DNA of 64,000 nucleotides, from positions 11,126 through 75,125 of the IMG/VR virus record IMGVR_UViG_3300042566_001051; one strand, 5' to 3'. Origin of the DNA: a virus. Below, piece after piece: positions 17,351 through 35,423 of the stretch; within the stretch, counting starts at the first letter, position 1; each line of letters starts with the position of its first letter. The notes beneath the pieces are model-generated. The model had not been told where the DNA came from. It worked only from the letters and a program-made list of their open reading frames with translations, and did no database searches. Position numbers and translations under genes: made by a program.

Positions 17351-17734
17351 CTACACCGTTATGATGGGGCGAAAGAAGGCCCGGTGCGGTAGCTCCGCCT
17401 CGAACTGGAGAATATCTGCCGCCACCTCGCTTGAGGATCGCCCGAAAACATCCATGCCAAGGCCACGAGAAGCCTCAAGCTGCAATGCCGTCTCGCGTTC
17501 GACGTACAGCAGGAACAGCGGCCGAATCAGCGCCCATTCTGAGTTGCTGATTTCAGTGTCGCCAGAAACGTCAGGCGCAGGCGATACACCCGCATGGGCG
17601 CGCAGTTCTGCATACCCGGCATAGAGACGGGTTGCAGCCACGGCCTGAGCAAGAACGGAAGGCCCGTCCAGCAGATTGCCAGCCGGGCGCTCGTTCGTTG
17701 CGAAGTTATCCGCTAGGGCGGAAAGAGTTGCCAT
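17351..17734 (-). CDS. P1 UpfB-like virion protein
   Basis: EWALIRPL...LEASRGLGMDVFGRSSSE...LPHRAF resembles P1 UpfB from recall. Confidence 0.5.
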   Translation of the reverse strand: MATLSALADNFATNERPAGNLLDGPSVLAQAVAATRLYAGYAELRAHAGVSPAPDVSGDTEISNSEWALIRPLFLLYVERETALQLEASRGLGMDVFGRSSSEVAADILQFEAELPHRAFFRPIITV

Positions 17735-18234
17735 TACCGGTAGTCGCCGGAGTTACCAGGAACGACTTCGCCGAAGTAGTGGTAGAACAGCGTGCCGGAG
17801 AAGATCAGAATCTGGGAACGGTTCTCCCAATCGCGGTCTGGCGCGTCAAGCTGGATGAAGCAATCGACGATGCGCTTGGCCTTCAGGAACTTCTGAGGAG
17901 TGCCCTCGTAAATCTTGGCATTGAACGTGCCGCCCTTGGCGATCAGGCTGACCATCATGTTGTCGATGCTGCCAGCAACGGTCTCCATCATGGAAATCTG
18001 GCCCTGCTGCGCGATTTCGACTTGCTGCGGCTGCCACATTTTGGCGCCCATCGGCGTGGGAACTTCGATTTCACCAGCCGGAGAAATCTCAGGCCAAGGC
18101 GCCTGCTTGCACAGCAGGTAGTTCTGTTCGAAGCCCTCGATTTCGAACGTGAAGTCACTGGAAACAACCTTGGCGCCAAGCGCCTTGGTCGTGTCGTAAA
18201 AGCCTTTGAGGTAGGCGGCATTGGAAACGGTCAT
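17734..18234 (-). CDS. bplB: Tail tube protein (P1 BplB-like)
   Basis: YLKGFYDTTKALGAKVVSSDFTFEIEG...QISMMETVAG...IVDCFI, similar to P1 BplB; 166 aa. Confidence 0.65.
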   Translation of the reverse strand: MTVSNAAYLKGFYDTTKALGAKVVSSDFTFEIEGFEQNYLLCKQAPWPEISPAGEIEVPTPMGAKMWQPQQVEIAQQGQISMMETVAGSIDNMMVSLIAKGGTFNAKIYEGTPQKFLKAKRIVDCFIQLDAPDRDWENRSQILIFSGTLFYHYFGEVVPGNSGDYR

Positions 18235-19383: not shown

Positions 19384-19384
19384 G

Positions 19385-21359: not shown

Positions 21360-21373
21360 GGCTTGCTCTCCTG

Positions 21374-22165: not shown

Positions 22166-22168
22166 GGC

Positions 22169-22200
22169 AAAAAAATGGCGCTACCGAGAAGCAGCGCCAT
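22169..22200 (-). terminator. Intrinsic terminator after the gp21-like gene
   Basis: ATGGCGCTGC-TTCTCG-GTAGCGCCAT followed by a T run on the minus strand. Confidence 0.7.
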
Positions 22201-22226
22201 TCCCCCGGTTAAGGTTGCAAGGGTGG

Positions 22227-22901
22227 TCAGATGCCCATCTTCCGGCGCATACGCATGGACTTCATGCGGCGCATCATCGCGCCCGCAGAATGGCTCTTCA
22301 TGCGCGCCTTGCGGATGGCGAGTTTCTGTTTTGCGGAGAGGCGCACCGTTCCGGAAATGCGCTTGCGGATGCGCATCTTCTTGCCGCCGCGAACCGCCAT
22401 CTTCATCTTGTAGACGGCATCCAAGGCGGGCTCCTGGTCGGACTCGCTGAAAACGAAGCTGTCGATTTCGGCGCTGGCCTCGTCATCGCCTTCCGGCAGC
22501 ACAGAGGCAACCAGATCACGCACGCGGTCAGCGGCTTCATCGTCCCAGTCGTTCAACAGTGCGCCGGCGTCCTCTTCGGTTGCGCCGCACTTGACCAGAT
22601 AGTCCCAGGCCGCATTGAGTGCAACTTCCAGCACGCCCTGTTCGTCCTCGGTGATGTCGCCGTCCTTGTTGGCATCGGCAATACCCACCACGAGGGCCAT
22701 CAGGCGGTCTGCGTAGCTCTCGCCATCGTCCAGATCGTCGGTTTCCGCCCATTGCTGGACGGCGGATACCGCAGACATGGAAATGTCGGCGATGGTGTAG
22801 TTGTCGGCCCCTGCGAGCGCCGGCTCTTCGCCGGTGGAATCCAGGGTCTTGGTAGCATCGCGGCGCTTCATCGCCCCGCGCAGCAGTTCGGTCATGCTCA
22901 T
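22227..22901 (-). CDS. P1 gp21-like protein (acidic body, very basic C-terminus)
   Basis: C-terminus AVRGGKKMRIRKR...LSAKQKLAIRKARMKSH...RRMKSMRMRRKMG; follows sheath. Confidence 0.65.
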   Translation of the reverse strand: MSMTELLRGAMKRRDATKTLDSTGEEPALAGADNYTIADISMSAVSAVQQWAETDDLDDGESYADRLMALVVGIADANKDGDITEDEQGVLEVALNAAWDYLVKCGATEEDAGALLNDWDDEAADRVRDLVASVLPEGDDEASAEIDSFVFSESDQEPALDAVYKMKMAVRGGKKMRIRKRISGTVRLSAKQKLAIRKARMKSHSAGAMMRRMKSMRMRRKMGI

Positions 22902-22928
22902 GTTTCTGTCCTTTCCTTGTGGGAGGGG

Positions 22929-24572
22929 TTAGCGAGTCAGCGTCTGGGTGACGAAAATCTGGCGGACGGTGCCGTCATAGCGAAGCCAGTACGAGCAATC
23001 CATCCGGTCGTAAGGCCGCACCTCATTTGGGCGAACGTCGAACTTCCACGCCTTGCCGTTCATTTCAGGCGCACTGGATGGAACCAGCCAGCCGGAAGAC
23101 TCGGCGCCCTCGAAGAGCTCGACCAGGAAGTCCTGCATGCGCTTCACGGCTACCTGCATCGGCAGTTGCAGCATGTCCTTGCCGGCACGAGTGACGGCAT
23201 CGTCGATGCTTGTGGACATGTCGGCCACGGAAATCAGCTTTTTCAGGCTGGATTCAACCAGGGCGCACGTCAGGGAGTCGCGGAAGACGTAGCGGCCGCC
23301 GCCGGTATAGACCTCGTACATCACCGGGTTGATCTTGGCGCGGGCCAGGGCGTTCAGTTCCTGGTCGCGTGGCGAATAAACCTGGGTCATGCGAGTGCGA
23401 CGGATAGGCCACTCGCGGCCGGCAATGACGTAGTTCTTCGGGGCAAAGCCCTTGGCATTGGTCTGAGCGTTGCGCAGGCAGGCGTAGGCGATGTTCAGCG
23501 TGGCCGTGCCAAGATGGCCCTTGGGGTTAATGCCCGTCGGGTCGTCCGACTTGATTGGAGACCAGAAGGCGTGCATCAGGTGGGCCGTCATGCTGGCGCC
23601 CATGTTCAACTGCTCCACGAAGGTGATAGCCGCCTCCGGGTTCAGGTTGCCAGGGATGTCGAAGCGCAATTGACGGTTGGTATCGAACGCCAGTTGTGCC
23701 AGTTGCGCCAGCAGGGCCGGCGCCTGGGTGCCGCCGGACGAAATGTAGGCATAGTTGAACGGGGTGTATTGCAGCTTCTCGCGCGCAGCCATGTAGTCCT
23801 GCGTGGTGTAGCCGGTGCCACCTTCAGTGAAGCACACCAGGACGGCGGACTTCGCCCACTTCTCTTGCCCATTCACGTCGTAGCCATAGGCCGGCGATGC
23901 GGGATCGACCGTTGCGCCGGCGCCGATGGTGCCGACTTTGATTTCGACCGCATCAGTCAGCGCCAAAGCAACGTCAGGCAGGTAGGCCGAGTTGCCGTAG
24001 TCGTCCTTGGCTTCCGGGTTCAGAGAGCCGTAGAACTCGTAAAGCAGGACGCCATCCTTGTCGCGGATGCGCAAGGTCAGCTTGTCGTTTGCGGCAGCTA
24101 CTCCGCCAACCTTGTTTTCATCTGCCCGGTATTCGAGCTTGATGCCATCGTTGTAGCACTCAAGGTGCTTCACGGCGAACAGGTACGGCGCGACGGGATC
24201 GGTTTCCGATGCTGAAAAGGTGACAGCCTTGGTTTCTGCATCAACCGTTGCAACAGCCCACTTGATGATGGCGGCGGAGGTGGTCAGGCGCTGGACAACG
24301 GCCTCATAGGCGCCGTTGTTCAGGGCCTCGACGACATGCACCCAAGCCTCGTTGAGGGCGGAGACGCGAATCTGCTCACCCTTGCCGAGTTTCTTGAACA
24401 CGTTGCCGCGATCAACCTTGAAAGGTTTGTCGATGCGGCCACGAGTGGCCCGCATCATGATGCCGAAGACCTGATCGGCGTTGTCGGCTACCGGAATCTC
24501 GGAGTTATCGCGCAGCGGATTAAGCTGCACGCCGGATTCGGCGCCAAGTTGTCTCACAAAAGCGGTACTCAT
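22929..24572 (-). CDS. Contractile tail sheath protein (P1 gp22-like)
   Basis: 547 aa; RGRIDKPF, ARAKINPV, DSLT, YDGTVRQI motifs; downstream of capsid. Confidence 0.8.
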   Translation of the reverse strand: MSTAFVRQLGAESGVQLNPLRDNSEIPVADNADQVFGIMMRATRGRIDKPFKVDRGNVFKKLGKGEQIRVSALNEAWVHVVEALNNGAYEAVVQRLTTSAAIIKWAVATVDAETKAVTFSASETDPVAPYLFAVKHLECYNDGIKLEYRADENKVGGVAAANDKLTLRIRDKDGVLLYEFYGSLNPEAKDDYGNSAYLPDVALALTDAVEIKVGTIGAGATVDPASPAYGYDVNGQEKWAKSAVLVCFTEGGTGYTTQDYMAAREKLQYTPFNYAYISSGGTQAPALLAQLAQLAFDTNRQLRFDIPGNLNPEAAITFVEQLNMGASMTAHLMHAFWSPIKSDDPTGINPKGHLGTATLNIAYACLRNAQTNAKGFAPKNYVIAGREWPIRRTRMTQVYSPRDQELNALARAKINPVMYEVYTGGGRYVFRDSLTCALVESSLKKLISVADMSTSIDDAVTRAGKDMLQLPMQVAVKRMQDFLVELFEGAESSGWLVPSSAPEMNGKAWKFDVRPNEVRPYDRMDCSYWLRYDGTVRQIFVTQTLTR

Positions 24573-24584
24573 GGCCTAGCCCCC

Positions 24585-24950
24585 TTACTGAGCTTGCGTT
24601 TCAGTGGTAGCAGCGCCGCCGGTCTTGCCCTTGGTGGGCGCGACAACCGCAACCTCTTCGATGGTCAGTGCCAGTTCGTAGCCATTCAGTTCGGCGATCT
24701 GCTCGATGCTGGATGCCAGGCGCTGGAACTGGTCTTCGCTTTCGATGGAGACCTCTTTTTGACGGCCAGCCTCGTCGGCGCAGTGGCGAAGGTGCAGCCC
24801 CTCCACCTCGGGGAACACGGCATTGCGCGGCATGTGGTTCGTCACCACAACCTTGAACGGGTACTTGACCTTGGCGAACTCCTTTGCCACCAGATCATTG
24901 GCGTCCTTCCCGGTGAGGGAAGGAGCGCCCAAATCGACTTTACGGGTCAT
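24585..24950 (-). CDS. Hypothetical virion protein
   Basis: 121-aa ORF between capsid and sheath with GGA-type RBS. Confidence 0.6.
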   Translation of the reverse strand: MTRKVDLGAPSLTGKDANDLVAKEFAKVKYPFKVVVTNHMPRNAVFPEVEGLHLRHCADEAGRQKEVSIESEDQFQRLASSIEQIAELNGYELALTIEEVAVVAPTKGKTGGAATTETQAQ

Positions 24951-24975
24951 GTTGGTTGCTCCTTATCCAGCCCGA

Positions 24976-26646
24976 TTACTTCAGGTTGGTGATGTTGATG
25001 AGTGCGCAGCCCAGCGAAGACGGGCCGTGCGGATTGACTGCCGTGAAGTTGCGGGCGTAGAAACCAGCGCCCTGCTTCAGGTCAGCCCCAACAGACAGCG
25101 GGATCACGGTCGGCGGAACGGCGTCGCCCAAAATGAACGGGTTGCGCGTCACGTCGGTAGCGCGGCCAACGCACAGAATTTGCGATGCGGTTTCGCTCTC
25201 GGTGATGCCCTTCGGGGTGTAATAGACCTCGAACCGGCCAAACAGGCGGCCGATGCGGAAGATGCCGGGACGCTCGGCGACGCCGGACGGCTCGAAAATC
25301 TCGCGCGGCAGCGACATGAACTGAGCGGCGACGTTCTTGCCGACGTACAGATGGGTGATACCGTGATTCATGGTATCCAGCGCCATCTGCTGCGATGCGG
25401 CAGCCAGGACATGGCCGAAATCAAGCCAGAGCATCGCGCGGTTCATCTGCGGCGAACGTGCGGCCCACTCGAAGTCGTAATCAACTTGGTTGTTGGCGGC
25501 CAGGCGGCGAGCCTTAGCCAGAACCTCGTAGTGACGCTCATTGGCGAACTGCGCCTGAATGGCAATCACGCTCTCGCTGTACGGGTCGAGGCCCAATTCA
25601 TTCGCCATCTGAGTACGGCTGTCGATGGTCTGGTGAGTGGTTACGCGCCAGGGCTTGGCGTGCAGCTTGTAGGTATTGACCGCCGTGATGATCGAGGGGG
25701 TCAGTTCCGGGGCGCGCTCGTAGTCGATGAAGCCTTCAACGACGACCGGGATAGTGACGGGCATAGCCGGCGCAGTGGTCAGGGCATAGACGCCGGTATC
25801 GGTGTTGATGGTGCCGCCGATAACGTAGTTGGTGCCGGCGATGGTGATATTGCCGGACACGGGCGAGTTGCCGGAACCGGTCGAATCAACTTCCTTGGCT
25901 GCCAGAACGCCATTCACATAAACCAGGGAGCGGCCACGCAACAGCTTGACGGCAGCAGCGCCGGCGTCGCAGGTTTCGTCGGTCGTCTGGATCGTGGTCA
26001 GCTTGCCGGTGACGGCGCCAGTATCGACAACCGGCATCGACTTGTTGATGCGGGACGAGGACACATAGGTATTGCCCGACAAGGAGCCGTCCATCAGCCC
26101 GCCCTCGGCATAGCGGCCGTAGGTATTGCCGGCGTTGTGGCTCATGATGGCAAGAACTGCCTCATTGGAACCGATGTCGGCAGGCAGGTAGTGGGCGAAC
26201 GGGATGGCATCGCCCATTGCGGAGAGAATTGCCACAATGGCGCGGTTCGGCTGCAATGCCAGGGCGTCGTGATGCGCGGAGCTTGCGGAGTCCAGGCTGA
26301 ACTTGCGGCGCGCGGAGTCCGTGGTGGCAAAGGCCAGGTGCAGGGCTTGCTCGATCACGTCGGCAGGGGCTGCAATGCCGTGCTGGGATTCGTAGGCGGA
26401 AACGCCATCGAGAATCGCGCGGGTGACGAGTGCTGCATCATCGCCCTTGGCTTCATCCAGAACGACTTGCAGGGTCTCGGGAACCTTGACGCCGGAATTC
26501 TGGTTGCTCGCGGTCGCAATGAAGTCTGCGGCAGCGGCGGAATCGAAGGTGCCAGCCTTGACGGCATTGTCCTTCAGGTTATCAACGAACTGGGCTACCT
26601 CGGCGGTTTCGCGCTTGAAGTAATCCTGGTGGATGCGCTTGGTCAT
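24976..26646 (-). CDS. Major capsid protein precursor (P1 gp23-like)
   Basis: 556 aa; LLRGRSLVYVNG, DYERAPELTP, IGRLFGRFEVY, PFILGDAVPPT. Confidence 0.85.
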   Translation of the reverse strand: MTKRIHQDYFKRETAEVAQFVDNLKDNAVKAGTFDSAAAADFIATASNQNSGVKVPETLQVVLDEAKGDDAALVTRAILDGVSAYESQHGIAAPADVIEQALHLAFATTDSARRKFSLDSASSAHHDALALQPNRAIVAILSAMGDAIPFAHYLPADIGSNEAVLAIMSHNAGNTYGRYAEGGLMDGSLSGNTYVSSSRINKSMPVVDTGAVTGKLTTIQTTDETCDAGAAAVKLLRGRSLVYVNGVLAAKEVDSTGSGNSPVSGNITIAGTNYVIGGTINTDTGVYALTTAPAMPVTIPVVVEGFIDYERAPELTPSIITAVNTYKLHAKPWRVTTHQTIDSRTQMANELGLDPYSESVIAIQAQFANERHYEVLAKARRLAANNQVDYDFEWAARSPQMNRAMLWLDFGHVLAAASQQMALDTMNHGITHLYVGKNVAAQFMSLPREIFEPSGVAERPGIFRIGRLFGRFEVYYTPKGITESETASQILCVGRATDVTRNPFILGDAVPPTVIPLSVGADLKQGAGFYARNFTAVNPHGPSSLGCALINITNLK

Positions 26647-26709
26647 AATCGTGAGTCCTTTCGGAAAGTTCAAACACAAGAAACGCCGGCTGGTAGCCGA
26701 CTTGTGTGT

Positions 26710-26750
26710 ATTCTGAAAGGCTGAAAACTGACCAAACGGGGCTTTTTCCG
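26710..26750 (-). promoter_or_regulatory. Candidate late promoter upstream of capsid
   Basis: CGGAAAAA-N27-CAGAAT. Confidence 0.5.
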
Positions 26751-26771
26751 GGTTTGCTGCCCCGCCTCCGA

Positions 26772-27257
26772 CTACGGCAAATCAAGGTCTCCGCGCCGGT
26801 TGCACACATACCGCGTCACGAATGGCGGGATATTGACGGTGGTCTCGGTGCCAACAACCTCATACGCCAGCCTCACGTCATCCGACAGAACGAGGTAGAT
26901 CACGTCTCGGTTGCGGATGTCGAAGAACCCAGGCATGCCGGACGGCTCTTCTGGCTCCACGAGAAAGCGGAATTCGGCGCCACTGCCGTTATTCGCATCC
27001 TGGCGATCCATCATCGGCGACGCCATGAACGCCTCTGCCTGCAATGCGTACCCGTTCCCAAGGTGGTCGTACTCGACAGACTCTTCATCCTCGGAGTCCA
27101 GAACGCCAAGCCCGCCCATCGTTGGCAAGCCGCCGACGGGCTCGCCTCCGGTGCGCGTGACGCGCTTCCCGAATACCTGGCACTCCCATGTATTCGGGTG
27201 GTTGATTACGACGTTGCGCGCCATGCGATTCACGGCGCTTGGTACATTAGTGAGCAT
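26772..27257 (-). CDS. Hypothetical virion (possible head-tail) protein
   Basis: 161-aa ORF in the structural operon. Confidence 0.55.
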   Translation of the reverse strand: MLTNVPSAVNRMARNVVINHPNTWECQVFGKRVTRTGGEPVGGLPTMGGLGVLDSEDEESVEYDHLGNGYALQAEAFMASPMMDRQDANNGSGAEFRFLVEPEEPSGMPGFFDIRNRDVIYLVLSDDVRLAYEVVGTETTVNIPPFVTRYVCNRRGDLDLP

Positions 27258-27259
27258 GC

Positions 27260-28360
27260 CTATCCTTTCAGTGCTGCCATGATGTCTTCTGGCGCTTTGC
27301 CAAGACGGCGAAGCTGGGCGATCAGGTCTTCCGCCGTAATTTCCCCCTTGTCGATCTGGGCCTCAAGCCGCCTGGTCGCTGCCGGCTTCTTGGCTTTCGA
27401 GCGGGGCGCGGCTTTCACGGCCGCCTTTGCCACCCGGCGCTCTTTTGCCTTTGCGGCTTCGGCCTTGCGCTGGTCGCTGGTCTTGATCTTTGTCACACTC
27501 TTGGCGTCCGCCGCCTCTTCGGCTTCATTCTGTGCGGCCTGAATGCGTGCAGTGTTGTCGGCTGACGCCTGCAACTTCTCCATGTACTTCTCAAGGAAGC
27601 GCAGCACGGCGTTCGACGACTCTATTTCCGTCATCACGCGCAGCACATGCTTACAAGCAACGCCCTTCAGCCCAGGATTGCGAATCTTCGGGAAGCCCCA
27701 TTCCTGCCGGCCAGCAGCAAAACCACCGATGGTGGCGACGTAACGCAGGAAATAGCGATGCCGGCCGCAGTCGCAATCGAATGACAGCTTCTGCTTCCTG
27801 AGCCAGTTGGCTACCTGCTTTGGTGACTTCCGGTCTTTTGCCTCGGTGGCGGCCAGCTTGTGACCGGCTTCATCGAAGGCGTTGAACATCACAACGACGT
27901 GGTGCCGTGTAACGTCAGAATCCTTTCCGGCGTTGGTGATGAATCGAACCATGCCGTTGTGAGCGGAAACTGGGATGCCGGACGTAATTTCCTTGCGCGC
28001 CTTGTCAATGTCGCTCGACGCTTCGTTTGGGTTCGCCGACACATAGGACAGCGGCTGAGACGAAGCCATGTCGATCACCTGGCGGGCTGTGATGCCTTTC
28101 CCGCCCTTGAATCTCGACTGCGCCATGCGCATGTTATGGCGGAACGTAGCCAGGTCGTCTGAAGTGATTCGACGCGAGCCTCCGCCTATGGTCGTCATGA
28201 GTACGCGATTTGCGTCCCATTCGCCCTGAACCTCCTGCTTGGTCAGGATTATCGACTTCGGCGACTTCTCAGCCTCTTCCCGCTGCTTCTTGTCGGCAGA
28301 AAAGCGGTCTTTCGCCTCGCCGACGTGGCCCTTTACCTTGCCAAGCCATGAATCGGCCAT
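27260..28360 (-). CDS. P1 gp16-like protein with SWIM-type Zn finger
   Basis: FDCDCGRHRY..RY.AT.G...FPKIRNP.L.GVACKHV. Confidence 0.7.
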   Translation of the reverse strand: MADSWLGKVKGHVGEAKDRFSADKKQREEAEKSPKSIILTKQEVQGEWDANRVLMTTIGGGSRRITSDDLATFRHNMRMAQSRFKGGKGITARQVIDMASSQPLSYVSANPNEASSDIDKARKEITSGIPVSAHNGMVRFITNAGKDSDVTRHHVVVMFNAFDEAGHKLAATEAKDRKSPKQVANWLRKQKLSFDCDCGRHRYFLRYVATIGGFAAGRQEWGFPKIRNPGLKGVACKHVLRVMTEIESSNAVLRFLEKYMEKLQASADNTARIQAAQNEAEEAADAKSVTKIKTSDQRKAEAAKAKERRVAKAAVKAAPRSKAKKPAATRRLEAQIDKGEITAEDLIAQLRRLGKAPEDIMAALKG

Positions 28361-28363
28361 GCG

Positions 28364-28702
28364 TTACCCCTCAGCCCAGGTGGGCGCGTAGTCTTCTCGG
28401 TATCCTGGGATGGACTCAAAGCCAGTGCGGCGCTTGATGGCGTAAAGCTGCCCTTCATTCGGCAGAACAATGCGTTTCTGTGGCAGCGGCTGATCTACGG
28501 TATCAAGCCCAGCGGCGGCCATGACGGCAAGGAACTCGTCACGCCGGCCATATACGCGCTGCGATACCAGCGTCAGGTCGAAAGCCTCGTCTGGCTTTGT
28601 CTCATAGAAAATTGCCGTGGCGTCCCAGGGCTTGGTGCTCTCGGCGAATTTGCGCACCTCTCGGTAGAAGGACTTGGCCGCTCGGGTGTCTTTTTCGATC
28701 AT
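28364..28702 (-). CDS. Baseplate protein (P1 gp26-like)
   Basis: YETKPDE..DLTLVSQRVYG...VMAAAG...LP. Confidence 0.6.
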   Translation of the reverse strand: MIEKDTRAAKSFYREVRKFAESTKPWDATAIFYETKPDEAFDLTLVSQRVYGRRDEFLAVMAAAGLDTVDQPLPQKRIVLPNEGQLYAIKRRTGFESIPGYREDYAPTWAEG

Positions 28703-28839
28703 TCCTGGTCACTTCCCACGATATACCTTGTGCCAGGTGTCCCAGAATTCAGCGGCGACATCAAGCGGAAGAACGATCGCTTTCGTGATCGCCTTGATCC
28801 ACGCGCCGGCGTACCAATGAGCAAGCATGTCAGTCCCTT

Positions 28840-29328
28840 TCAGATTGTGATGACGCCGCCACGGGTCAGGAAGCGGAACGATTCAGCCATCTTCACGGTG
28901 CGCTCAACCGTATCGGAGCGGGTCGCGTGCAGGCACGTCGCCAATGCGGCAATCTGCCCGCAGGTAACGCCCTCTGCAATGCGGTATTTCGGCCCGCCGG
29001 CGTCGATGCCGTCTTTCTCGATAGCCTGATCCGGGTTGGCTCGCGCGGCGCGGTCAGCGAAAGCGATGCGCGAACTCTTGCCGTCGGCGGCGATGCCGGC
29101 CTTCAGGGAATAGAACGCCGATATGGCGCGCATCAGATCGGCATCGGTAAAGAGCTCGTCGCGCGGTATGTCCTGGTCGTTGGTCAGCACGATACAGCCA
29201 GCCCGGCGCTCGGTTCGATAATCCGCCTCAGCCCCGACAACCAGGACGCGGGCATCAGGGTCGTAGGCTGAAAAAAGGCTGCACGGGCGGCCGCCGTAGC
29301 CGGTGAAAGTAGCCTGAATCTGGATCAC
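28840..29328 (-). CDS. Hypothetical protein in the structural operon
   Basis: 162-aa ORF coupled to the upstream gene. Confidence 0.6.
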   Translation of the reverse strand: MIQIQATFTGYGGRPCSLFSAYDPDARVLVVGAEADYRTERRAGCIVLTNDQDIPRDELFTDADLMRAISAFYSLKAGIAADGKSSRIAFADRAARANPDQAIEKDGIDAGGPKYRIAEGVTCGQIAALATCLHATRSDTVERTVKMAESFRFLTRGGVITI

Positions 29329-30104
29329 AGGTCGCGCTCCCCATTGACGACGTATGGCCTGACGACGACGGAGCCGCCGTTATCACCGCTCTCCATGCTC
29401 TCGGCGTTGATTTCCTGCACAAGCGGATAGCCTGCCGGGTCTGCCGTGCCTGGCGTGCCCTTGCCGTCGTTCGGCTGCCCCTCGGCAGGCGCGTCGAACA
29501 GCGGGATTTCGGCCTTCAGGGTGATGTCAATGGCGAGGATGGTGAGATTCTTCGCCTCGGTCTGGATTGACATGGCCGGAGCGTCCGGCGACTCGACCTG
29601 TACCGGCCAATCCATCGGCTCGCCGGCGAAGTTGTATCGCGCCGTGAATCGTCGATTCGGCACGGCATCAAGGAACAGCAGGAACTGAGCGGCAATGGAG
29701 CGGGCGGACGGCTCGTCATGGGCGAATATGCAAATCTGCGCCCGGATGTCACCGGCGACGGCGCGAACACCGAAAACGCGCTCCTTGTCATCGCCGGGAA
29801 TCATGACCATGACAGATTCAGCTACCTGGCGGGTGAAGTCTCGCCCTGTCGGCGTGTAATCCTTGGCCATTGCAACGATGATGACTGGCATGTTCGCCGG
29901 CTTGGTTGCGGCGCTGTCCGTGTCGTTACGCTGCCAGCTTGAAAGCATGTCCTCGGCCGCGTCGATCATCCTGGACGGCGCCCAAACAACACTCTTTGCC
30001 AGGCCGCGCGTGACGTACCCCTCCAATGCTTTGGTGGTTGGCACGATGGAGGCGTAAAAGCCCCCCATGTATTCGCCGAACGCGGCTTTGACTGGCTGGA
30101 GCAT
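29325..30104 (-). CDS. Tail completion/terminator-like protein (P1 gp24-like)
   Basis: Size, position and weak motif resemblance. Confidence 0.45.
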   Translation of the reverse strand: MLQPVKAAFGEYMGGFYASIVPTTKALEGYVTRGLAKSVVWAPSRMIDAAEDMLSSWQRNDTDSAATKPANMPVIIVAMAKDYTPTGRDFTRQVAESVMVMIPGDDKERVFGVRAVAGDIRAQICIFAHDEPSARSIAAQFLLFLDAVPNRRFTARYNFAGEPMDWPVQVESPDAPAMSIQTEAKNLTILAIDITLKAEIPLFDAPAEGQPNDGKGTPGTADPAGYPLVQEINAESMESGDNGGSVVVRPYVVNGERDL

Positions 30105-30110
30105 TGGTAG

Positions 30111-30947
30111 TTACCGGGTGAATTTGCCCAACAGGCGGTCGTATAGCGGCGAGGAAGGCGCGGCATCTTCTGCCGGAGCGACGAAGGTGGGCAGATCGGC
30201 AGCCCGGAACAGCTTGGCGTCTCGGCTGATCCGGTCGGCGGAGCTGATCGAAACCGCTACCGGCAGAATTGATGCAGCATCAAGGACGGCAGATGGCTCA
30301 ATGCCCTTCTTGGCGAGCATCGAGAGAAGCTGCTCGTTTTCCGATTGCAGGCGCTCAATCACGGCGCTCGTCGCGGAGCGCTCCGCATTGATGTTGTCCA
30401 GAATGGCGATCACGGCCTGAGCCTGCTCATCTTGCTCCGCCGCGTAAATGTCGTCGTAAGTCAGCGCGCCAACATTCCCGCCCATCGCATCATCCAGTGC
30501 GATTCCACGGAATGAATTGTTCAGGTAGTTGGGCTGGGCAACATAGTCAAACCCGTAGAACTCCGGGCGAGACTGATCTATCGCCGATGAAAACCCGCCC
30601 ACCTTCTCTTCCCATAATTTGGCAGCAAGGCGGCCCGCTGCCGTATCGAGGAACTGGGCGCGGTGCTCAACGTTTCCGTCGTAGTCCGCCTTCAGGTAGG
30701 TGGTAACAATGGCCGGCTCGACCGGAGCATACTTACCGCCCTCGATACCGCCTTCGACTGGGGCCATGCCATAGCGGACGCGCGGAAGGTGCCCATAGAA
30801 GCCCAGCATCCCGCGCGACGCGACCATTTCCTGACACGCTGGGCCGTTGATGGCGTCACAAATGGCCTTAATGTTGAAATTACGATGCTGGCCGGTATGT
30901 TGCCGGCCGCGATCCTTGAGGTTGTAGCGGATAACCGGGGTTTCCAT
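30111..30947 (-). CDS. pro: Prohead protease (P1 Pro-like)
   Basis: GRQHTG..RN...GFYGH..R...VEH...LDT..G...GGFSSA...GFDYVAQPNY; AAGGAG RBS. Confidence 0.8.
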   Translation of the reverse strand: METPVIRYNLKDRGRQHTGQHRNFNIKAICDAINGPACQEMVASRGMLGFYGHLPRVRYGMAPVEGGIEGGKYAPVEPAIVTTYLKADYDGNVEHRAQFLDTAAGRLAAKLWEEKVGGFSSAIDQSRPEFYGFDYVAQPNYLNNSFRGIALDDAMGGNVGALTYDDIYAAEQDEQAQAVIAILDNINAERSATSAVIERLQSENEQLLSMLAKKGIEPSAVLDAASILPVAVSISSADRISRDAKLFRAADLPTFVAPAEDAAPSSPLYDRLLGKFTR

Positions 30948-30979
30948 CGTGCGAACTCCTTGTGAATAGGTGCTCGCAC

Positions 30980-31021
30980 AATCTTCGCACTCCACTACAT
31001 GCCAATCATTGCCATTTTCCG
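30980..31021 (-). promoter_or_regulatory. Candidate late promoter upstream of pro
   Basis: CGGAAAAT-N28-AAGATT with internal GATTGGC. Confidence 0.45.
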
Positions 31022-31702
31022 CGCTTGCACCGCTTCATCCAGGGTATCGAACGTGCCGACGCAAACTTGCCTGCCGCCCTTGGTGTAGTAGGCGCGGAAC
31101 CGGCCTCTGCGCACCCATACGCCCGGCTCACCCGTGCCTTTCTTGCGCTCAAGTCGCTCCGGTATGGCGGAAGGCTCTTCAAGCGTGCCGAATGGGTGCG
31201 TATCACGCTTGGCCTTCAGGTATGCAGCCTCTGCCTCTTCTGCTGTTGCGTAGCTGCCAAGGTATTTCCGCTTGCCGCCGGACTGGATCATCACGACGAA
31301 CCGGCCCCGCTTGGTCAGGCTTACCCCAAGGATTCCAGCCTTGTTGTTCCAGTGCGCCTTGCGCTGGTTTTGAAGGTTCTCATCCCTGAGAGCTTTTCGC
31401 AGGTTTGCGATCCGGTTGTCAGCCTTGTTGCCGTTGATGTGGTCAAGCTCTACGGGCCACTCGCCGTAGTAATGGAGCCAAGCGAGTTGATGGGCTTGGT
31501 ATCGTCTGCCGAATAATGCGATGCGGACATAGCCTGTGGATGACACTCCGCCGGCATCGGCCCCTGATTTTGCGGCACCCATGCTTTTCAGCCAGACGAA
31601 CCTACCTGTATCGGGACAGTACCCAAGCGTCTTGCGCAAGACTTCTGCGGTCAACGTTAATTTATCGTCGAAAGTCGGCGCTGGCGGGACAGTGGTTTTC
31701 AT
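30995..31702 (-). CDS. HNH endonuclease with two AP2-like domains
   Basis: AHQLAWLHYYGEWPVELDHINGNKADNRIANLR; YLGSYATAEEAEAAY; VGTFDTLDEAVQAR. Confidence 0.9.
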   Translation of the reverse strand: MKTTVPPAPTFDDKLTLTAEVLRKTLGYCPDTGRFVWLKSMGAAKSGADAGGVSSTGYVRIALFGRRYQAHQLAWLHYYGEWPVELDHINGNKADNRIANLRKALRDENLQNQRKAHWNNKAGILGVSLTKRGRFVVMIQSGGKRKYLGSYATAEEAEAAYLKAKRDTHPFGTLEEPSAIPERLERKKGTGEPGVWVRRGRFRAYYTKGGRQVCVGTFDTLDEAVQARKMAMIGM

Positions 31703-31917
31703 TTACCGTTCGATACATCAGGCCACGGCTCGTTTCGCAGCAGGTAGTTTTGCTCAAAGCCTTCGATTTTGAAGGTGAAGTCGCTCGGAATGTCTCTTGG
31801 CTCAATGGCTTTGATTGAGTCGTAAAATCCTTTTAGATAAAGGTAATTTGGCGACTTTCTGTTGGCAAAAATATCTAATAGCCGCTTGTTTCTGCGATTT
31901 TGTTTGGCTCGTTTCAT
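31699..31917 (-). CDS. 72-aa protein carrying a truncated copy of the tail tube N-terminus
   Basis: YLKGFYDSIKAIEPRDIPSDFTFKIEGFEQNYLLRNEPWPDVS aligns with tube YLKGFYDTTKALGAKVVSSDFTFEIEGFEQNYLLCKQAPWPEIS; ATGA-coupled on both sides. Confidence 0.7.
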   Translation of the reverse strand: MKRAKQNRRNKRLLDIFANRKSPNYLYLKGFYDSIKAIEPRDIPSDFTFKIEGFEQNYLLRNEPWPDVSNGK

Positions 31918-32381
31918 TTTTCGCCCCGCCTGTTGCTAGCAAGAAAACTTTTCCCGCTGCTTACAGTTGCCTCGACATCACGAAGTTGCCTAACCGTAAT
32001 AAATTCGCTTCCATTCCCAAAAACAACAACAGAATCATCGGCACTCTCAAGATGTCCATTTAGAAATCTCGCAAATGGCCCCATGACCTCAATCGCTGTT
32101 GCGTAGTTTTCATTGGCAATCGCAACAGCCCTTGAAAGCTCCGATTTTTGTCGTTCCTGGTCAGCCTGCATGCTGTCATAAAAATTCCCTTCTATGACTT
32201 CATAGTGTCTGCTCTCCAACAGATCAATAGCTGATTTGACTTGGCTATCTGGAGCGTTGATGAACATTGAAACCGCTCGCCTGATTAGCTCGCTTACCGG
32301 AACCCCTGTTTCGAGCGACATGGTTTTCAGCGCATCAAGCATGGGCTGAGGATAGTAGAAGTTCGTGCGCTTCATTTTCAT
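31914..32381 (-). CDS. Ribbon-helix-helix domain protein
   Basis: MKRTNFYYPQPMLDALKTMSLETGVPVSELIRRAV; ATGA overlap with the upstream ORF. Confidence 0.75.
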   Translation of the reverse strand: MKMKRTNFYYPQPMLDALKTMSLETGVPVSELIRRAVSMFINAPDSQVKSAIDLLESRHYEVIEGNFYDSMQADQERQKSELSRAVAIANENYATAIEVMGPFARFLNGHLESADDSVVVFGNGSEFITVRQLRDVEATVSSGKSFLASNRRGEK

Positions 32382-32641
32382 TCTTTGCTTTCTTTGCGCT
32401 CTTTTAAGTCGTTGGGCGTCTTCGCGCGCTTTGCGATCATGCGAAGTATCTTCTTCCCGTACTTGTATTTTAGTCTCCAAAACGTGTCCTTATCTGCATC
32501 ACTAATGAGGCCGCCTTTGTCCACGCACGCATCGCAAATCGAAATCCAAGCATTACACCACTCGTCATTTTGTCCAGATCCCTCCCAGAACGAAATGATA
32601 TTTTCAATCTCGTTACCTGTAAGTTCTTTTATTTCACTCAT
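32378..32641 (-). CDS. Hypothetical protein, first gene of the AT-rich operon
   Basis: 87-aa AT-rich ORF with GGA RBS. Confidence 0.6.
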   Translation of the reverse strand: MSEIKELTGNEIENIISFWEGSGQNDEWCNAWISICDACVDKGGLISDADKDTFWRLKYKYGKKILRMIAKRAKTPNDLKERKESKE

Positions 32642-32670
32642 TTTTCATCCAGTCTCTCTTAACATCCCGC

Positions 32671-32701
32671 TTAATATGTGCCATATCATAGCACATATTA
32701 A
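32671..32701 (-). promoter_or_regulatory. Extended -10 promoter inside a perfect 11-bp inverted repeat
   Basis: TTAATATGTGC-N9-GCACATATTAA; minus strand reads TG-C-TATGAT. Confidence 0.65.
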
Positions 32702-34206
32702 ACGTCGGCAAACAAGCTCTCGGCACGAGACACAACGCTTTCTGCCAGGCTTCCGCTGAACCCGGCCCCACCCTCGCAAATCATGTAGGTGGCGTCCTCA
32801 AGGAACATGAAGCAGATCGCATCGAACAAGTCAGGCGACGGCAGGCCCATCTTCCGCATTTCGTCCTTCCGCTCGATCACGTAGCGCGCTTTCTCGTCAA
32901 AGTGGAACGGAACCCGGCTCATCTGATCCAATAGCTCTTTCACCCACGGGCCGTCGGCAATACCAAGCCGCCCCTCCTTGGCGGCCCGCGCGGCATGCAC
33001 CATCGCTTGCGCCCGCAGGTTGAAAAACCGCTCCTTGTTGCGCTGCTTGAAGCATGGCGCTCCCCATTTCACGCGCTTAACCTCTGGCAGCCCCATGCTT
33101 TCCAGCGCCTGGCAGACAGCAACGCCCATGCCGCCGGCGTCAACCAGCGTCGTGACGTTCTCCAATTCGCTTGCCGTATTGAAGATCGCCCCGGAAAAGT
33201 CTTGCAGGTTGCGCGTATTGGAATTGATCGGCACGCCTACAATCTGAACGCGGCGAGCGTCCGGCCCAAAATCGCTATGCCCTGTCACATGAGCGACAAT
33301 GGCGACGGACTTGTCGCGGTACTCCCCAGCCCCCACGTCGCACGAAAGCATGATGCCGTAGCTTTCCCCTTGCTGAATTACCTTGCGCCCGATGCAGGCT
33401 TCGGCGGCCTTTCTGCCCAGCAGGTAGTCATCACGCGACTCGGGGAATTCGCCTAGCACCTTGATGGTGTATTCCTCTTCGGTGTATTCCTGCTTCTTTT
33501 CCTCGATGAAAGCCTTGGAAACCAGCGGCGAATCGTTCGAATCCATGCGTATCGCGTTCCATACACCGCCGTTGTGCATCGCCAGCTTGTTGTGGGTGTC
33601 GTAGAAGAACCCGGACGGTCTGGTGGGCTGCGAAAGCATCAGCATCCGGTTTCTGGCGTCCGTCAGCGCGCCCGTGATAACGGCGTAGTTCGGGTCTGGG
33701 ATGCCGGATGCCTCGTCGGCAATCACCAGATACCAATCCCGGTGCATGCCGGCCAGATTCTCAGGGTTTCCGCGCGGCGCCGTCTTGGCGAAGACGAACC
33801 ATGTCTGCTTGAAGCCCTTCACATAGACGCGCTCCGCCTCAAATGTGACGTAATCAGCAATCCACGACTGCCCGCCCTTGCTTCGGATCAGGTCAAGCAC
33901 ATCGGCCATTTCCTTCCATGCCACGTTGCGCACCTGTTCGATCTTCGGCGCGGTAATCATCGTGTTGGATTTCGGGTAGCACAACAGATGCCACAGGGCG
34001 ATAACGGCCAATGATCGAGACTTTCCTGAGCCGTGGCCGCTTCGAACGGATGTCCGACTGCCTGGCGGAGATACCGAATCCAGCAATTCAAGCTGCTGGT
34101 GGGTCGGCATCATCCCGACCACCTCGGCGGCAAACCTCGCCAGGCTGAATGCGTACCTTGCGGCAAACGGTAGATAGCGCGGGTCATCAAGCAGCCTCAT
34201 TGCCAT
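32698..34206 (-). CDS. pacB: Terminase large subunit (P1 PacB-like)
   Basis: VRSGHGSGKS Walker A, LVIADEASG Walker B, CDVG and SPDLFDA nuclease motifs. Confidence 0.92.
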   Translation of the reverse strand: MAMRLLDDPRYLPFAARYAFSLARFAAEVVGMMPTHQQLELLDSVSPPGSRTSVRSGHGSGKSRSLAVIALWHLLCYPKSNTMITAPKIEQVRNVAWKEMADVLDLIRSKGGQSWIADYVTFEAERVYVKGFKQTWFVFAKTAPRGNPENLAGMHRDWYLVIADEASGIPDPNYAVITGALTDARNRMLMLSQPTRPSGFFYDTHNKLAMHNGGVWNAIRMDSNDSPLVSKAFIEEKKQEYTEEEYTIKVLGEFPESRDDYLLGRKAAEACIGRKVIQQGESYGIMLSCDVGAGEYRDKSVAIVAHVTGHSDFGPDARRVQIVGVPINSNTRNLQDFSGAIFNTASELENVTTLVDAGGMGVAVCQALESMGLPEVKRVKWGAPCFKQRNKERFFNLRAQAMVHAARAAKEGRLGIADGPWVKELLDQMSRVPFHFDEKARYVIERKDEMRKMGLPSPDLFDAICFMFLEDATYMICEGGAGFSGSLAESVVSRAESLFADV

Positions 34207-34783
34207 CGGTAGCGCCCCGCTCCTTGCGCACAGCCTCGCGCATTTCCTCCGACTTCTTCATTGCCTGCGCAAACATGGCGTCAAGCTCATCCAGCGTTGC
34301 CACGCCGCTTGAGTTGTCCTCGGCAATGGCGTCCAGCCCCCACGCCTTGCGCTCGCCTTCCTGTCTGATCTTGATGGCCTCAGCCGCCGTCTTCGCCACG
34401 CGGGCAACGCCAAGCCCATCCTCGCCCAGCATGTCCTTCAACGTGAATAGCCGGCGATGGTCGCCCCATTCCTCGCGGTGCTTCTCGATCACGTCGGCGC
34501 GCAGATCAACCGACTCTGATTCAGTTAGCGGACTAACTTTCCCGCTAACTTTGCGACTAACTTTCTCGTCAGCCTTGGCCTGGGCGCGTTCAACAATGGT
34601 CTTGAGACTGGCCTTCTTAGCCCATCCTTCCTTGCGGGCGCGCTTGAGAACGGCAACGTCAGAGACGGACAAATTCATTTCCGTCACGATCCATGTGTAG
34701 CCGTCTCGCGGGTCGGTTTCCCACTTGGCGCGAATCCCGGCCCACTCTTCGGGAGACATTCGTTTTTTGGTCGTCGTGGTCAT
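34187..34783 (-). CDS. pacA: Terminase small subunit (PacA-like)
   Basis: N-terminal HTH (EEWAGIRAKWE...KRARKEGW); directly upstream of the large subunit. Confidence 0.75.
   Translation of the reverse strand: MTTTTKKRMSPEEWAGIRAKWETDPRDGYTWIVTEMNLSVSDVAVLKRARKEGWAKKASLKTIVERAQAKADEKVSRKVSGKVSPLTESESVDLRADVIEKHREEWGDHRRLFTLKDMLGEDGLGVARVAKTAAEAIKIRQEGERKAWGLDAIAEDNSSGVATLDELDAMFAQAMKKSEEMREAVRKERGATDGNEAA
34523..34564. repeat. CTAACTTT x3 at 12-bp spacing plus AGTTAG-N4-CTAACT palindrome inside the small terminase gene
   Basis: Copies at 34533, 34545, 34557; palindrome 34523-34538. Confidence 0.7.
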
Positions 34784-34805
34784 TTCTGCAACCTCTCTCA
34801 GATCG

Positions 34806-35423
34806 TCAGATCGTCAGGCTTAGTTGATTCGTGTCGGCGGCGGCGATGGAGCATTCAAGCCGGAACCGCGTCATCTTTGCCTTGGCGTTCTTGGCGGCAT
34901 CGGCAGCGCGCCCGATTGATCCGGTCAGCCTGCTACCGGCTTTCATGTCCTCGAATTCAGGGTTGAGCTCAATGAACCGTTCCAGGGCGGCGCCGGTCTC
35001 GTCAGAAGCAGCGAGCATCGTGGCAATCGCCTCTTCCATTGCCTCCACCTTGTTGTGCAATTTTCGCAAGGTCTCCATGTCTCGCCGGCGGGCCTTTTCC
35101 CACGTATCGAACAGCCACGCGGAGGTTTCGCGCTCCTGGGTCATGCGGGAGCCAGCCTCCCAGTCATCCGAACAGCCAAAAAGGTAGTCGATTGAAACCT
35201 CATACACGCTGGCGGCGCGCACGATCAGCCACAAGGGGACAGAGTTGGTATCGGTTGCCCATTCCACCTTGGAGAGCTTCGATGGATTCGAGTACCCAAG
35301 CCGACGGGCTGCCGCGCTCTGGGACATGTTGCACAGTTCGCGGGCCTCTCTCATCCGGGCGCCGATGGTTTTCACCACGGCCGCCTGTTCGATTCGAGTT
35401 GATGAAGGTTTCTTCTCTGGCAT
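34806..35423 (-). CDS. XRE-family HTH protein, candidate late-gene activator
   Basis: IGARMREARE..NMSQSAAARRLGY...LSKVE...YEVSIDYLFG; immediately upstream of pacA. Confidence 0.7.
   Translation of the reverse strand: MPEKKPSSTRIEQAAVVKTIGARMREARELCNMSQSAAARRLGYSNPSKLSKVEWATDTNSVPLWLIVRAASVYEVSIDYLFGCSDDWEAGSRMTQERETSAWLFDTWEKARRRDMETLRKLHNKVEAMEEAIATMLAASDETGAALERFIELNPEFEDMKAGSRLTGSIGRAADAAKNAKAKMTRFRLECSIAAADTNQLSLTI

What the first reader, a model, noticed from the sequence alone, without database searches (positions are those of the whole stretch)
31699..32701. AT-rich operon with its own promoter encoding a truncated tail-tube mimic
Seen: between pacB and pro lies an AT-rich, ATGA-coupled chain (87-aa unknown, RHH protein, 72-aa ORF, HNH-AP2). 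The 72-aa ORF has a basic N-terminus fused to about 43 residues resembling the N-terminus of the phage's own tube protein (17734-18234). Over SDFTF(E/K)IEGFEQNYLL there are 6 synonymous changes and 1 non-synonymous change. Known: some prophages encode tail-assembly inhibitors against superinfecting phages. Inference: the fragment could cap or poison tube polymerisation of related phages, or decoy a host sensor of tail proteins. Alternative: a recombination relic from a related phage's tube gene, which would give the same synonymous bias.
Basis: partly seen in the sequence, partly recalled or inferred. Interest (0 to 1): 0.82.

Follow-up and report, generated by a model that had tools for sequence, protein, structure and literature searches.

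The report
Tail-tube gene remnant in homing cassette
A P1-like phage carries a short extra copy of the front end of its own tail-tube gene inside a mobile homing-endonuclease cassette; it looks like a hitch-hiked gene remnant that still recombines with real tube genes, not a proven tail-assembly inhibitor.

Summary
The 72-aa ORF (31699-31917, minus) matches residues 5-51 of the phage's tube protein (29/47 identical, E 3e-20). It lies in a 41-47% GC island, ATGA-coupled between an RHH gene and an HNH-AP2 homing endonuclease.

The tube is a homologue of phage P1 BplB. The fragment covers its N-terminal 'rim' domain and first strands, and stops just before the beta-hairpin 'plug'.

Five sister phages have TerL directly followed by the protease gene, so island plus HNH is an insertion. 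Metagenome contigs show cassette variants without the 72-aa ORF (RHH coupled straight to HNH) or without the 87-aa gene.

The fragment is a mosaic. Codons 45-60 are 46/48 nt identical to tube alleles of sister phages but 41/48 to the phage's own tube. Codons 24-44 are about 59% identical to any tube. This patch explains the 6 synonymous : 1 non-synonymous pattern.

Only five such truncated proteins were found among about 15 billion, and three residues invariant in the aligned tubes are changed.

Best reading (0.55): a hitch-hiked tube-gene remnant, its frame perhaps kept as a translational bridge to the HNH gene. A tail-assembly inhibitor or decoy is not excluded (about 0.2 for the two readings together) but has no positive support.

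The parts
32668..32704 (.). Inverted repeat (17-nt arms, 88% complementary, 3 nt apart) straddling the TerL stop codon. It contains TGCTATGAT, an extended -10-like motif. Candidate promoter and RHH operator at the upstream edge of the insertion.
   Evidence: The consensus promoter scan did not call a site here. The X3 contig variant keeps this element directly in front of the RHH gene.
32378..32641 (-). 87-aa ORF of unknown function, GC 0.44. An optional module of the cassette.
   Evidence: No hit in Pfam, PHROGs, PADLOC, NCBIfam or isolate phages. A contig in run X3 replaces 32383-32676 by 20 nt.
31914..32381 (-). RHH (CopG/Arc-like) protein, 155 aa: N-terminal ribbon-helix-helix domain plus an unassigned C-terminal part. 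Its ATG overlaps the 87-aa stop (ATGA).
   Evidence: Pfam RHH_3 E 7e-7 and RHH_1 E 1e-4; phrog_2639 Arc-like repressor; junction sequence. A 73%-identical RHH domain lies directly downstream of an unrelated TerL in L066.
31699..31917 (-). 72-aa ORF: a basic leader of about 21 aa (31855-31917) fused to a copy of tube residues about 4-51. ATGA overlaps on both sides.
31711..31848 (-). Tube-like part of the 72-aa ORF (codons 24-69), equivalent to P1 BplB residues about 9-55: the N-terminal 'rim' helix domain plus the first beta-sandwich strands. It ends just before the beta-hairpin 'plug'.
   Evidence: BLASTP; profile alignment of the tube family to 8jan BplB; BplB domain limits from PMC10304247
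31738..31785 (-). 48-nt conversion patch (codons 45-60, SDFTFKIEGFEQNYLL). It is 46/48 identical to the tube alleles of L018/L010/L011, 45/48 to L009 and 41/48 to this phage's own tube.
   Evidence: In 254 tube pairs with equally diverged flanks, block identity never exceeds 0.83. Fisher p 4.5e-6 for block against flank.
30995..31702 (-). Free-standing HNH_3 + AP2 homing endonuclease, 235 aa, GC 0.58. One of three paralogues in this genome.
   Evidence: Pfam HNH_3 E 3.7e-13 and AP2 E 1.7e-10; phrog_99 E 1e-63; PADLOC 'homing endonuclease'; 1944 phage records with relatives; paralogues
31015..31021 (-). CGGAAAA box of the putative P1-type late promoter of the protease gene, lying inside the last codons of the HNH gene. 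It marks the downstream limit of the insertion.
   Evidence: Sequence. The same box lies 14 nt after the TerL stop in cassette-less L004. The motif was first noted in earlier finding e1-6081264.
17734..18234 (-). The phage's intact tail-tube gene (166 aa), a homologue of P1 BplB and the parent family of the fragment.

Best explanation
The 72-aa ORF is a genuine partial paralogue of the phage's P1-BplB-type tail-tube gene. It is carried as an optional module of a mobile accessory cassette: palindrome/promoter, 87-aa gene, RHH gene, 72-aa ORF, HNH-AP2 homing endonuclease. The cassette is inserted between the large terminase gene and the late promoter of the prohead protease gene.

It is most likely a hitch-hiked remnant of a tube gene, not a dedicated tube mimic. 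Its 5' tube-like part is old and diverged (about 59% nt identity to any tube, AT-rich codons). A 48-nt patch in the middle was recently copied from a real tube gene of a sister phage by homologous recombination. That patch produces the 'synonymous-only' pattern.

Inferred step: the reading frame stays open because the ORF bridges the RHH and HNH genes by termination-reinitiation at ATGA overlaps, so frame and end points matter more than sequence.

Shown: homology, insertion polymorphism, modularity, mosaic structure, rarity. Inferred: the remnant origin, the direction of conversion (tube to fragment), and the coupling role.
For: 1. The cassette is an insertion. In L004, L005, G002, G003 and G004 (TerL 68-82% identical) TerL is followed directly, or after a 220-nt spacer, by the protease gene, with no island and no HNH. 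In four wastewater runs the summed contig depth over the island bins is 25-92 in X2/X3 and 2-24 in X6/X7. Most structural-gene bins are at 1000-5900 in X2/X3 and 70-1270 in X6/X7 (table 2).

2. It is a homing-endonuclease setting. The gene carries HNH_3+AP2 domains and matches phrog_99. The genome has three paralogues and relatives occur in 1944 phage records.

3. The 72-aa ORF is dispensable for the cassette. An X2 contig replaces 31658-31923 by 27 nt, so that the RHH stop overlaps a TTG start of the HNH gene (TTGA).

4. The fragment is a mosaic. Codons 45-60 are 46/48 nt identical to L018/L010/L011 tubes, with dS 0.12 against 1.65 to the phage's own tube. Codons 24-44 are 59% identical with saturated dS. 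Tube pairs with such diverged flanks never exceed 83% identity in the block.

5. Tube constraints are relaxed. Residues invariant in 19 tubes spanning 38-68% GC are changed: G20 to E, K22 to R, Q44 lost. Eight amino-acid replacements occur among four variants that are more than 90% identical. The distant relative P0006 ends about 10 residues earlier.

6. The family is rare. One cluster of 4 sequences plus one singleton were found among about 15 billion proteins. A pattern scan found none in IMG/VR, JGI contigs or GTDB genomes.

7. ATGA overlaps lie on both sides, and no convincing Shine-Dalgarno sequence precedes the HNH start.
Against: - The frame is intact in all four close variants.
- A 55-60%-identical relative (P0006) keeps the same basic leader plus tube-like part, so the chimera has persisted through substantial divergence.
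- The YLKGFYD helix motif is kept at the protein level despite synonymous changes.
- The fragment corresponds to a discrete structural unit of the tube, the rim domain that contacts the next ring and the terminator in P1 (PMC10304247). A random breakpoint would not necessarily give that.
- No related phage with a homing endonuclease next to its tube gene was found in 35 tube loci, so the postulated earlier capture event is not documented.
- The coupling role is inferred from sequence only.
- I could not obtain the DNA of the other variants, so no dN/dS of the fragment itself was computed.
Confidence: 0.55

Rival explanations
1. Dominant-negative tail-assembly interference. The 72-aa protein presents the tube's N-terminal rim domain without the wall and plug. 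It binds the plug hairpins of free tube subunits, the growing tube end, or the terminator, and so blocks tail completion of competing related phages. The resident tube would escape through sequence differences or timing.
For: - The fragment equals BplB residues about 9-55, the domain that forms the rim receiving the next ring's plug. In the top ring of P1 that domain pairs with terminator gp24.
- The ORF is intact in 4 variants plus P0006.
- It sits in a cassette with a plausible own promoter and an RHH regulator.
- Tail-assembly blockers encoded by prophages exist: Tab, PMC10884400; Tai, PMC11364771.
Against: - Tube-invariant residues are lost.
- The family is extremely rare.
- Cassette variants lack the ORF.
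- The C-terminal end point is variable (P0006).
- No partner counter-defence gene is recognisable.
- Tab acts on the tape measure protein (a section heading of PMC10884400). Neither abstract presents Tab or Tai as a fragment of a structural protein.
- There is no similarity to any PADLOC model.
Confidence: 0.14
2. Decoy for a host immune sensor. The fragment mimics the tube epitope that a bacterial defence protein recognises and titrates it, protecting the phage.
For: - From general knowledge, some defence systems are triggered by tail-tube proteins (for example DSR2).
- The fragment keeps the most conserved tube motif, SDFTFEIEGFE, which is refreshed by conversion from real tubes.
- It would be made from a promoter independent of the late operon, if that promoter is real.
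Against: - No evidence of expression.
- No identified sensor in the unknown host.
- The fragment is unlikely to fold alone, since it is part of a beta-sandwich.
- Rarity and optional presence, as above.
Confidence: 0.06
3. DNA-level role. The tube-like stretch matters as homology, not as protein. It is the footprint of an earlier residence of the endonuclease in or beside a tube gene, or it lets endonuclease-induced breaks in tube genes be repaired from the cassette. Either would drive the repeated patch exchanges between fragment and tube genes.
For: - Sharp 48-nt patch of tube origin.
- The tube-like part of P0006 is 81% identical (protein) to a different tube lineage, L008.
- P0002 is a tube(1-41)/fragment(61-72) chimera.
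- Homing endonucleases mobilise flanking DNA (PMC2790892, PMC2988022).
Against: - There is no tube homology downstream of the HNH gene, so true homing into a tube gene is impossible.
- No endonuclease gene lies near the tube in 35 related loci.
- P0002 may be an assembly chimera. E50 variants share a 29-nt exact run with L018-type tubes, close to the assembler's word length.
- The cleavage site is unknown.
Confidence: 0.12
4. Untranslated pseudogene. The ORF is a chance-open relic with no role at all, and the HNH gene is translated independently.
For: The ORF is short (219 nt). The family is young and rare. Close variants show many replacements.
Against: ATGA overlaps on both sides are kept. 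A GGGG box lies 6 nt upstream of its ATG. The frame is open in all five known relatives, including the 55-60%-identical P0006.
Confidence: 0.1

Closest known systems
Free-standing HNH homing endonuclease genes of phages with co-mobilised flanking DNA (T4 seg/mob genes; mobE, PMC2790892; review PMC2988022)
   Same: An HNH-family endonuclease gene is inserted between two conserved genes and is present or absent among close relatives. The genome holds several paralogues. The neighbouring DNA shows mosaic recombination tracts.
   Different: Here the endonuclease is translationally chained to an RHH regulator and to a fragment of a distant structural gene (the tube gene lies 13.5 kb away), not to its immediate neighbours. 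Its cleavage site is unknown.
Phage P1 tail tube protein BplB (PDB 8jan; PMC10304247)
   Same: The full-length 166-aa tube of this phage is a sequence homologue (profile E 1e-6). The fragment aligns to the BplB N-terminal domain plus the first strands.
   Different: The fragment lacks about 70% of the protein: the wall beta-sandwich, the beta-hairpin plug and the O-loop. It carries a foreign basic leader and has lost residues that are invariant in the tube family.
Prophage tail-assembly inhibitors Tab (PMC10884400) and Tai (PMC11364771)
   Same: These are small accessory proteins of temperate elements that block the tail assembly of other phages.
   Different: No sequence relation was found. 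Neither abstract presents Tab or Tai as a fragment of a structural protein, and both come with counter-defence genes; none is seen here. No activity has been shown for the 72-aa ORF.
Phage morons and RHH-regulated accessory operons
   Same: An AT-rich insert with a plausible own promoter and operator lies inside a late operon, next to the terminase gene.
   Different: It is linked to a homing endonuclease, and one of its ORFs is a paralogue of a virion gene.

Membership tests
P1 BplB-type tail tube protein (phrog_1120) | Sequence homology to the family | tested here: met
   BLASTP to the phage's own tube: 29/47 identical, E 3e-20. phmmer hits to tube proteins, E 1e-5 to 1e-9. The fragment alone does not reach phrog_1120.
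P1 BplB-type tail tube protein (phrog_1120) | Full-length fold: beta-sandwich wall, beta-hairpin plug, O-loop (about 160-173 aa) | tested here: not met
   Only tube residues about 4-51 are present. The ORF stops before the hairpin that spans BplB 52-77.
P1 BplB-type tail tube protein (phrog_1120) | Invariant N-terminal residues of the family (Y8, G20, K22, S26, D27, E31, E33, G34, E36, Q44, P46, W47) | tested here: not met
   G20 to E, K22 to R, Q44 deleted or replaced, and E31 to K in the window's variant. The others are kept.
Free-standing HNH homing endonuclease cassette | HNH nuclease domain plus DNA-binding module | tested here: met
   HNH_3 E 3.7e-13 and AP2 E 1.7e-10; phrog_99 E 1e-63
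Free-standing HNH homing endonuclease cassette | Presence/absence polymorphism at one site between conserved genes in related genomes | tested here: met
   Five relatives have TerL adjacent to the protease gene. Contig depth is far lower over the cassette than over the flanks.
Free-standing HNH homing endonuclease cassette | Site-specific cleavage of cassette-less alleles and gene conversion | not testable with these tools
   Needs enzyme assays or co-infection crosses.
Free-standing HNH homing endonuclease cassette | Not intron-encoded | tested here: met
   No Rfam family (including group I/II introns) at E <= 1 in 30500-33200.
Tail-assembly inhibitors (Tab / Tai) | Sequence membership | tested here: inconclusive
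   No PADLOC, Pfam, PHROG or NCBIfam hit. PADLOC v2.0.0 (2023) predates the two papers, and the Tab/Tai sequences were not compared directly.
Tail-assembly inhibitors (Tab / Tai) | Blocks tail assembly of an infecting phage; paired counter-defence gene | not testable with these tools
   Needs plaque assays and electron microscopy. No candidate counter-defence gene was recognised in the cassette.
RHH-autoregulated operon | RHH repressor plus palindromic operator overlapping its promoter | tested here: inconclusive
   RHH domain met. A 17-nt-arm inverted repeat containing TGCTATGAT lies upstream. The promoter scan did not call it, and no binding or transcription data exist.

The most novel reading that the evidence does not exclude
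The basic-leader/tube-rim chimera is a functional small protein that a homing-endonuclease cassette carries as cargo. It would act as a dominant-negative cap of tube or terminator assembly, or as a decoy for a tube-sensing host defence. Recurrent patch conversion from resident tube genes would keep it matched to circulating tube alleles. That would be a self-updating structural-protein mimic spread by a selfish endonuclease.
Probability: 0.13. Interest if true: 0.75.

Novelty: new member of a known kind. Interest (0 to 1): 0.33.

Why it matters
The locus is a clean, dated example of three things:
- a free-standing homing-endonuclease cassette in a P1-like phage assembling from optional modules;
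- such a cassette carrying a piece of a distant structural gene;
- a short gene remnant continuing to exchange about 50-nt patches with its functional parent.

It is also a warning for sequence-only reading. A strong synonymous bias between a fragment and its parent gene can come from recent conversion by another allele of the parent, not from selection on the fragment.

If the minority reading were true, it would add a new principle to phage-phage interference and anti-defence: a tail-assembly blocker or sensor decoy derived from the target protein itself.

Tried and rejected
The contigs of P0001, P0002, P0004, P0005 and P0006 could not be fetched, so there is no genomic context for them and no dN/dS among fragment variants.
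- A degenerate DNA pattern for SPN-x-x-YLK-x-FYD found only chance matches in IMG/VR, JGI metagenome contigs and GTDB genomes.
- The search for related loci with the 72-aa ORF found nothing in IMG/VR.
- The search for homologous proteins with 'longer' returned nothing, not even the phage's own tube, so that answer is uninformative.
- Complex prediction (tube family with fragment family) gave no verdict: score 0.00, and the partner's fold was uncertain. This is not evidence either way.
- The AlphaFold2 model of the tube from a 19-row alignment was poor (mean pLDDT 42.9) and was not used for fold searches. The structural mapping rests on the sequence alignment to P1 BplB instead.
- No RNA holder is listed among public runs. 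The 'RNA-Seq' wastewater libraries are probably DNA, so nothing can be said about expression.
- The origin of the basic leader is unknown. A short-peptide tblastn against the window and all loci gave nothing significant. I considered that the leader derives from the o-spanin/tube junction and dropped the idea for lack of similarity.
- The protein atlas gave no usable lead for the RHH C-terminal part or the 87-aa protein. Neither has relatives in isolate phages.
- A group I intron around the HNH gene was excluded.
- A low-GC tube lineage as donor was considered. The fragment is not closer to the tubes of low-GC phages L032, L040 and L042 (54-67% nt) than to its own clade (71-72%).
- P0002 was considered as proof of fragment/tube recombination. 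It was down-weighted because a shared 29-nt exact run makes an assembly chimera possible.
Full report
**What is there**

The window is part of a 75-kb IMG/VR virus record of about 60% GC. Its late genes lie on the minus strand. Reading that strand, the order is:
- small terminase (34783-34187);
- large terminase TerL (34206-32698, Pfam Terminase_6N);
- a 56-nt spacer;
- an 87-aa ORF (32641-32378);
- an RHH protein (32381-31914, 155 aa, RHH_3/RHH_1);
- the 72-aa ORF (31917-31699);
- an HNH_3+AP2 endonuclease (31702-30995);
- a probable capsid-region gene.

The three internal junctions are all ATGA stop/start overlaps. GC falls to 0.41-0.47 between about 31700 and 32700, against 0.58-0.62 on both sides. 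The HNH gene is not part of the AT-rich stretch (GC 0.58, GC3 0.67).

**The similarity is real**

The 72-aa ORF aligns to residues 5-51 of the 166-aa protein at 17734-18234 with 29/47 identities, E 3e-20. An all-against-all comparison of every open frame in the window shows this is the only partial duplicate of a structural gene. The other paralogous pairs are three HNH copies and the DGR repeats.

The 166-aa protein is a tail tube protein. It matches phrog_1120, E 3.7e-46. A profile of 19 family members hits the phage P1 tube protein BplB (PDB 8jan), E 1e-6, with tube residue n equal to BplB residue n+4. The synteny with Xanthomonas phage Rb1 (spanins, tube, two tail genes, baseplate, DarA-like gene) agrees with a P1-like myovirus.

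**What part of the tube is copied**

In P1 BplB, residues 1-31 form an N-terminal domain (a helix and two loops). Six of these make the 'rim' that receives the beta-hairpin 'plug' (residues 52-77) of the adjacent ring. In the top ring this domain refolds and pairs with the terminator gp24 (PMC10304247).

The fragment corresponds to BplB residues about 9-55. That is the rim domain plus the first sandwich strands, and it ends just before the plug. In front of it is a 21-aa basic leader (MKRAKQNRRNKRLL...) with no detectable relative in the window or in any locus fetched.

**The cassette is an insertion and is modular**

In five related phages TerL is followed directly by the protease gene:
- L004 and L005, with TerL 82% and 78% identical at the protein level;
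- G002, G003 and G004, the last carrying an almost identical tube.

L005, G002 and G003 have no spacer between the two genes. L004 has a 220-nt spacer. None has the island or the HNH gene.

In the window it lies inside the last codons of the HNH gene. The insertion therefore sits between the TerL stop and that promoter.

Contigs of four wastewater runs were laid on 17000-35000. Summed depth over the island bins is 25-92 in X2/X3 and 2-24 in X6/X7. Most structural-gene bins are at 1000-5900 in X2/X3 and 70-1270 in X6/X7. Most related phages in those samples therefore lack the cassette (depth of contigs is only a rough guide).

Two contig variants are informative:
- In run X2, 31658-31923 is replaced by 27 nt. 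The whole 72-aa ORF is gone, and the RHH stop overlaps a TTG start of an HNH gene with a different N-terminus (TTGA).
- In run X3, 32383-32676 is replaced by 20 nt. The 87-aa gene is gone, and the palindrome plus a GAGGTGG ribosome-binding site precede the RHH gene directly.

So RHH plus HNH is the core, and the 87-aa and 72-aa genes are optional modules.

The HNH-AP2 protein belongs to a very common phage homing-endonuclease family: phrog_99, relatives in 1944 phage records, and three paralogues in this genome. No intron model matches.

**The fragment is a mosaic**

Against 36 tube genes, codons 24-44 of the fragment are about 59% identical at the DNA level to every tube, with saturated synonymous divergence and AT-rich third positions (GC3 0.39).

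Codons 45-60 (31738-31785) behave differently. They are 46/48 identical to the tube genes of L018, L010 and L011, 45/48 to L009, and only 41/48 to the phage's own tube. dS is 0.12 to L018 against 1.65 to the own tube.

Among 254 tube-tube pairs whose codons 5-25 are no more than 65% identical, the same block never exceeds 83% identity. The within-fragment contrast gives Fisher p 4.5e-6.

The simplest reading is a short, recent gene-conversion patch copied from a real tube gene of a sister phage into an old fragment. The '6 synonymous, 1 non-synonymous' differences from the resident tube are then allelic differences between two functional tube genes. The single non-synonymous change (K50) is private to the window's variant; the other three variants have E, like all tubes.

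Overall the fragment is nearest to its own clade of tubes (71-72% nt), not to the tubes of low-GC phages.

**How conserved is the truncated form**

An exhaustive HMMER scan of 1.84 billion representatives and two word-indexed searches found only two entries with the basic leader:
- a cluster of four 72-aa sequences (92-94% identical to the window's, with eight replacements among the four);
- one 60-aa protein, P0006 (55-60% identical). It has the same leader, its tube-like part is 81% identical to the tube of L008, and it ends about ten residues earlier.

A third protein, P0002 (53 aa), equals the resident tube's residues 1-41 joined to the fragment's last 12 residues. It may be a true recombinant. 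It may also be an assembly chimera, because E50 variants share a 29-nt exact run with L018-type tubes.

Of twelve residues invariant in the first 47 positions of the 19 aligned tube proteins (38-68% GC), the fragment has changed G20, K22 and Q44.

**Interpretation**

The weight of evidence favours a hitch-hiked remnant of a tube gene inside a homing-endonuclease cassette (confidence 0.55). The points in favour are an accessory cassette, an optional module, extreme rarity, loss of family-invariant residues, a variable end point, and mosaic exchange with real tube genes.

Two facts need explaining: the frame is open in all five relatives, and ATGA overlaps are kept on both sides. I infer that the ORF serves as a translational bridge from the RHH gene to the HNH gene. 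The HNH start has no convincing Shine-Dalgarno sequence, and the variant without the ORF has RHH coupled directly to HNH. That role would conserve frame and end points but not sequence.

The capture event itself is not documented. No endonuclease gene lies near the tube gene in 35 related loci.

**Rivals**

- A dominant-negative rim-domain protein that blocks tail assembly (0.14), or a decoy for a tube-sensing defence (0.06), cannot be excluded. The fragment matches a discrete interaction domain, and the chimera has persisted to about 55-60% identity. No positive evidence was obtained, and it is not related to any known defence model.
- A DNA-level role as recombination homology or a homing footprint (0.12) would fit the repeated exchanges. 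It lacks a second homology arm.
- A wholly silent pseudogene (0.10) is less likely, given the conserved junctions.

**Promoter claim**

The consensus scan found nothing in the spacer. The spacer does contain TGCTATGAT, an extended -10 form, centred in an inverted repeat with 17-nt arms that straddles the TerL stop. This would be a natural operator for the RHH protein. It is plausible and untested.

**Limits**

No RNA data exist. The complex prediction gave no verdict. The tube model was of low confidence.

Noticed in passing
window 2826-3332 (+) and 48530-49087 (+): Two further HNH-AP2 homing-endonuclease paralogues, 43% and 49% identical to the one at 30995-31702. The second has an in-frame TGA inside the match and may be broken or split.
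   Followed up: partly
L066:5001-5141 (and L065): In an unrelated phage with a different large terminase, a 47-aa RHH protein lies immediately downstream of TerL. Its first 37 residues are 73% identical to the island's RHH domain (same MKMKRTNFYYP start). An RHH gene just after the terminase gene may be a recurrent mobile module.
   Followed up: partly
window 17930-18021 (tube gene); loci L015, L019, L021-L023: A common tube allele of 173 aa carries a 7-residue insertion (TYASGGA-like) after the GG at residues 101-102. It is seen both in IMG/VR relatives and as a 113-for-92-nt replacement in wastewater contigs.
   Followed up: no
proteins P0007, P0009, P0010, P0012, P0014, P0015, P0016: Several metagenome-predicted 'tube' proteins of 63-134 aa have a normal N-terminus that runs into unrelated sequence at different positions (residues about 36-100). 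They look like frameshifts or assembly errors rather than a second truncated family.
   Followed up: no
window 55252-55437 vs 63816-63983, and neighbours: Short, highly similar protein segments on opposite strands, consistent with the DGR template/variable repeats that other first-stage notes describe for this genome.
   Followed up: no
window 31015-31021 and L004:5070-5077: The CGGAAAA late-promoter box upstream of the protease gene is embedded in the HNH C-terminal codons here, but is intergenic in the cassette-less relative. The endonuclease gene's 3' end therefore doubles as the promoter region of the next gene.
   Followed up: partly
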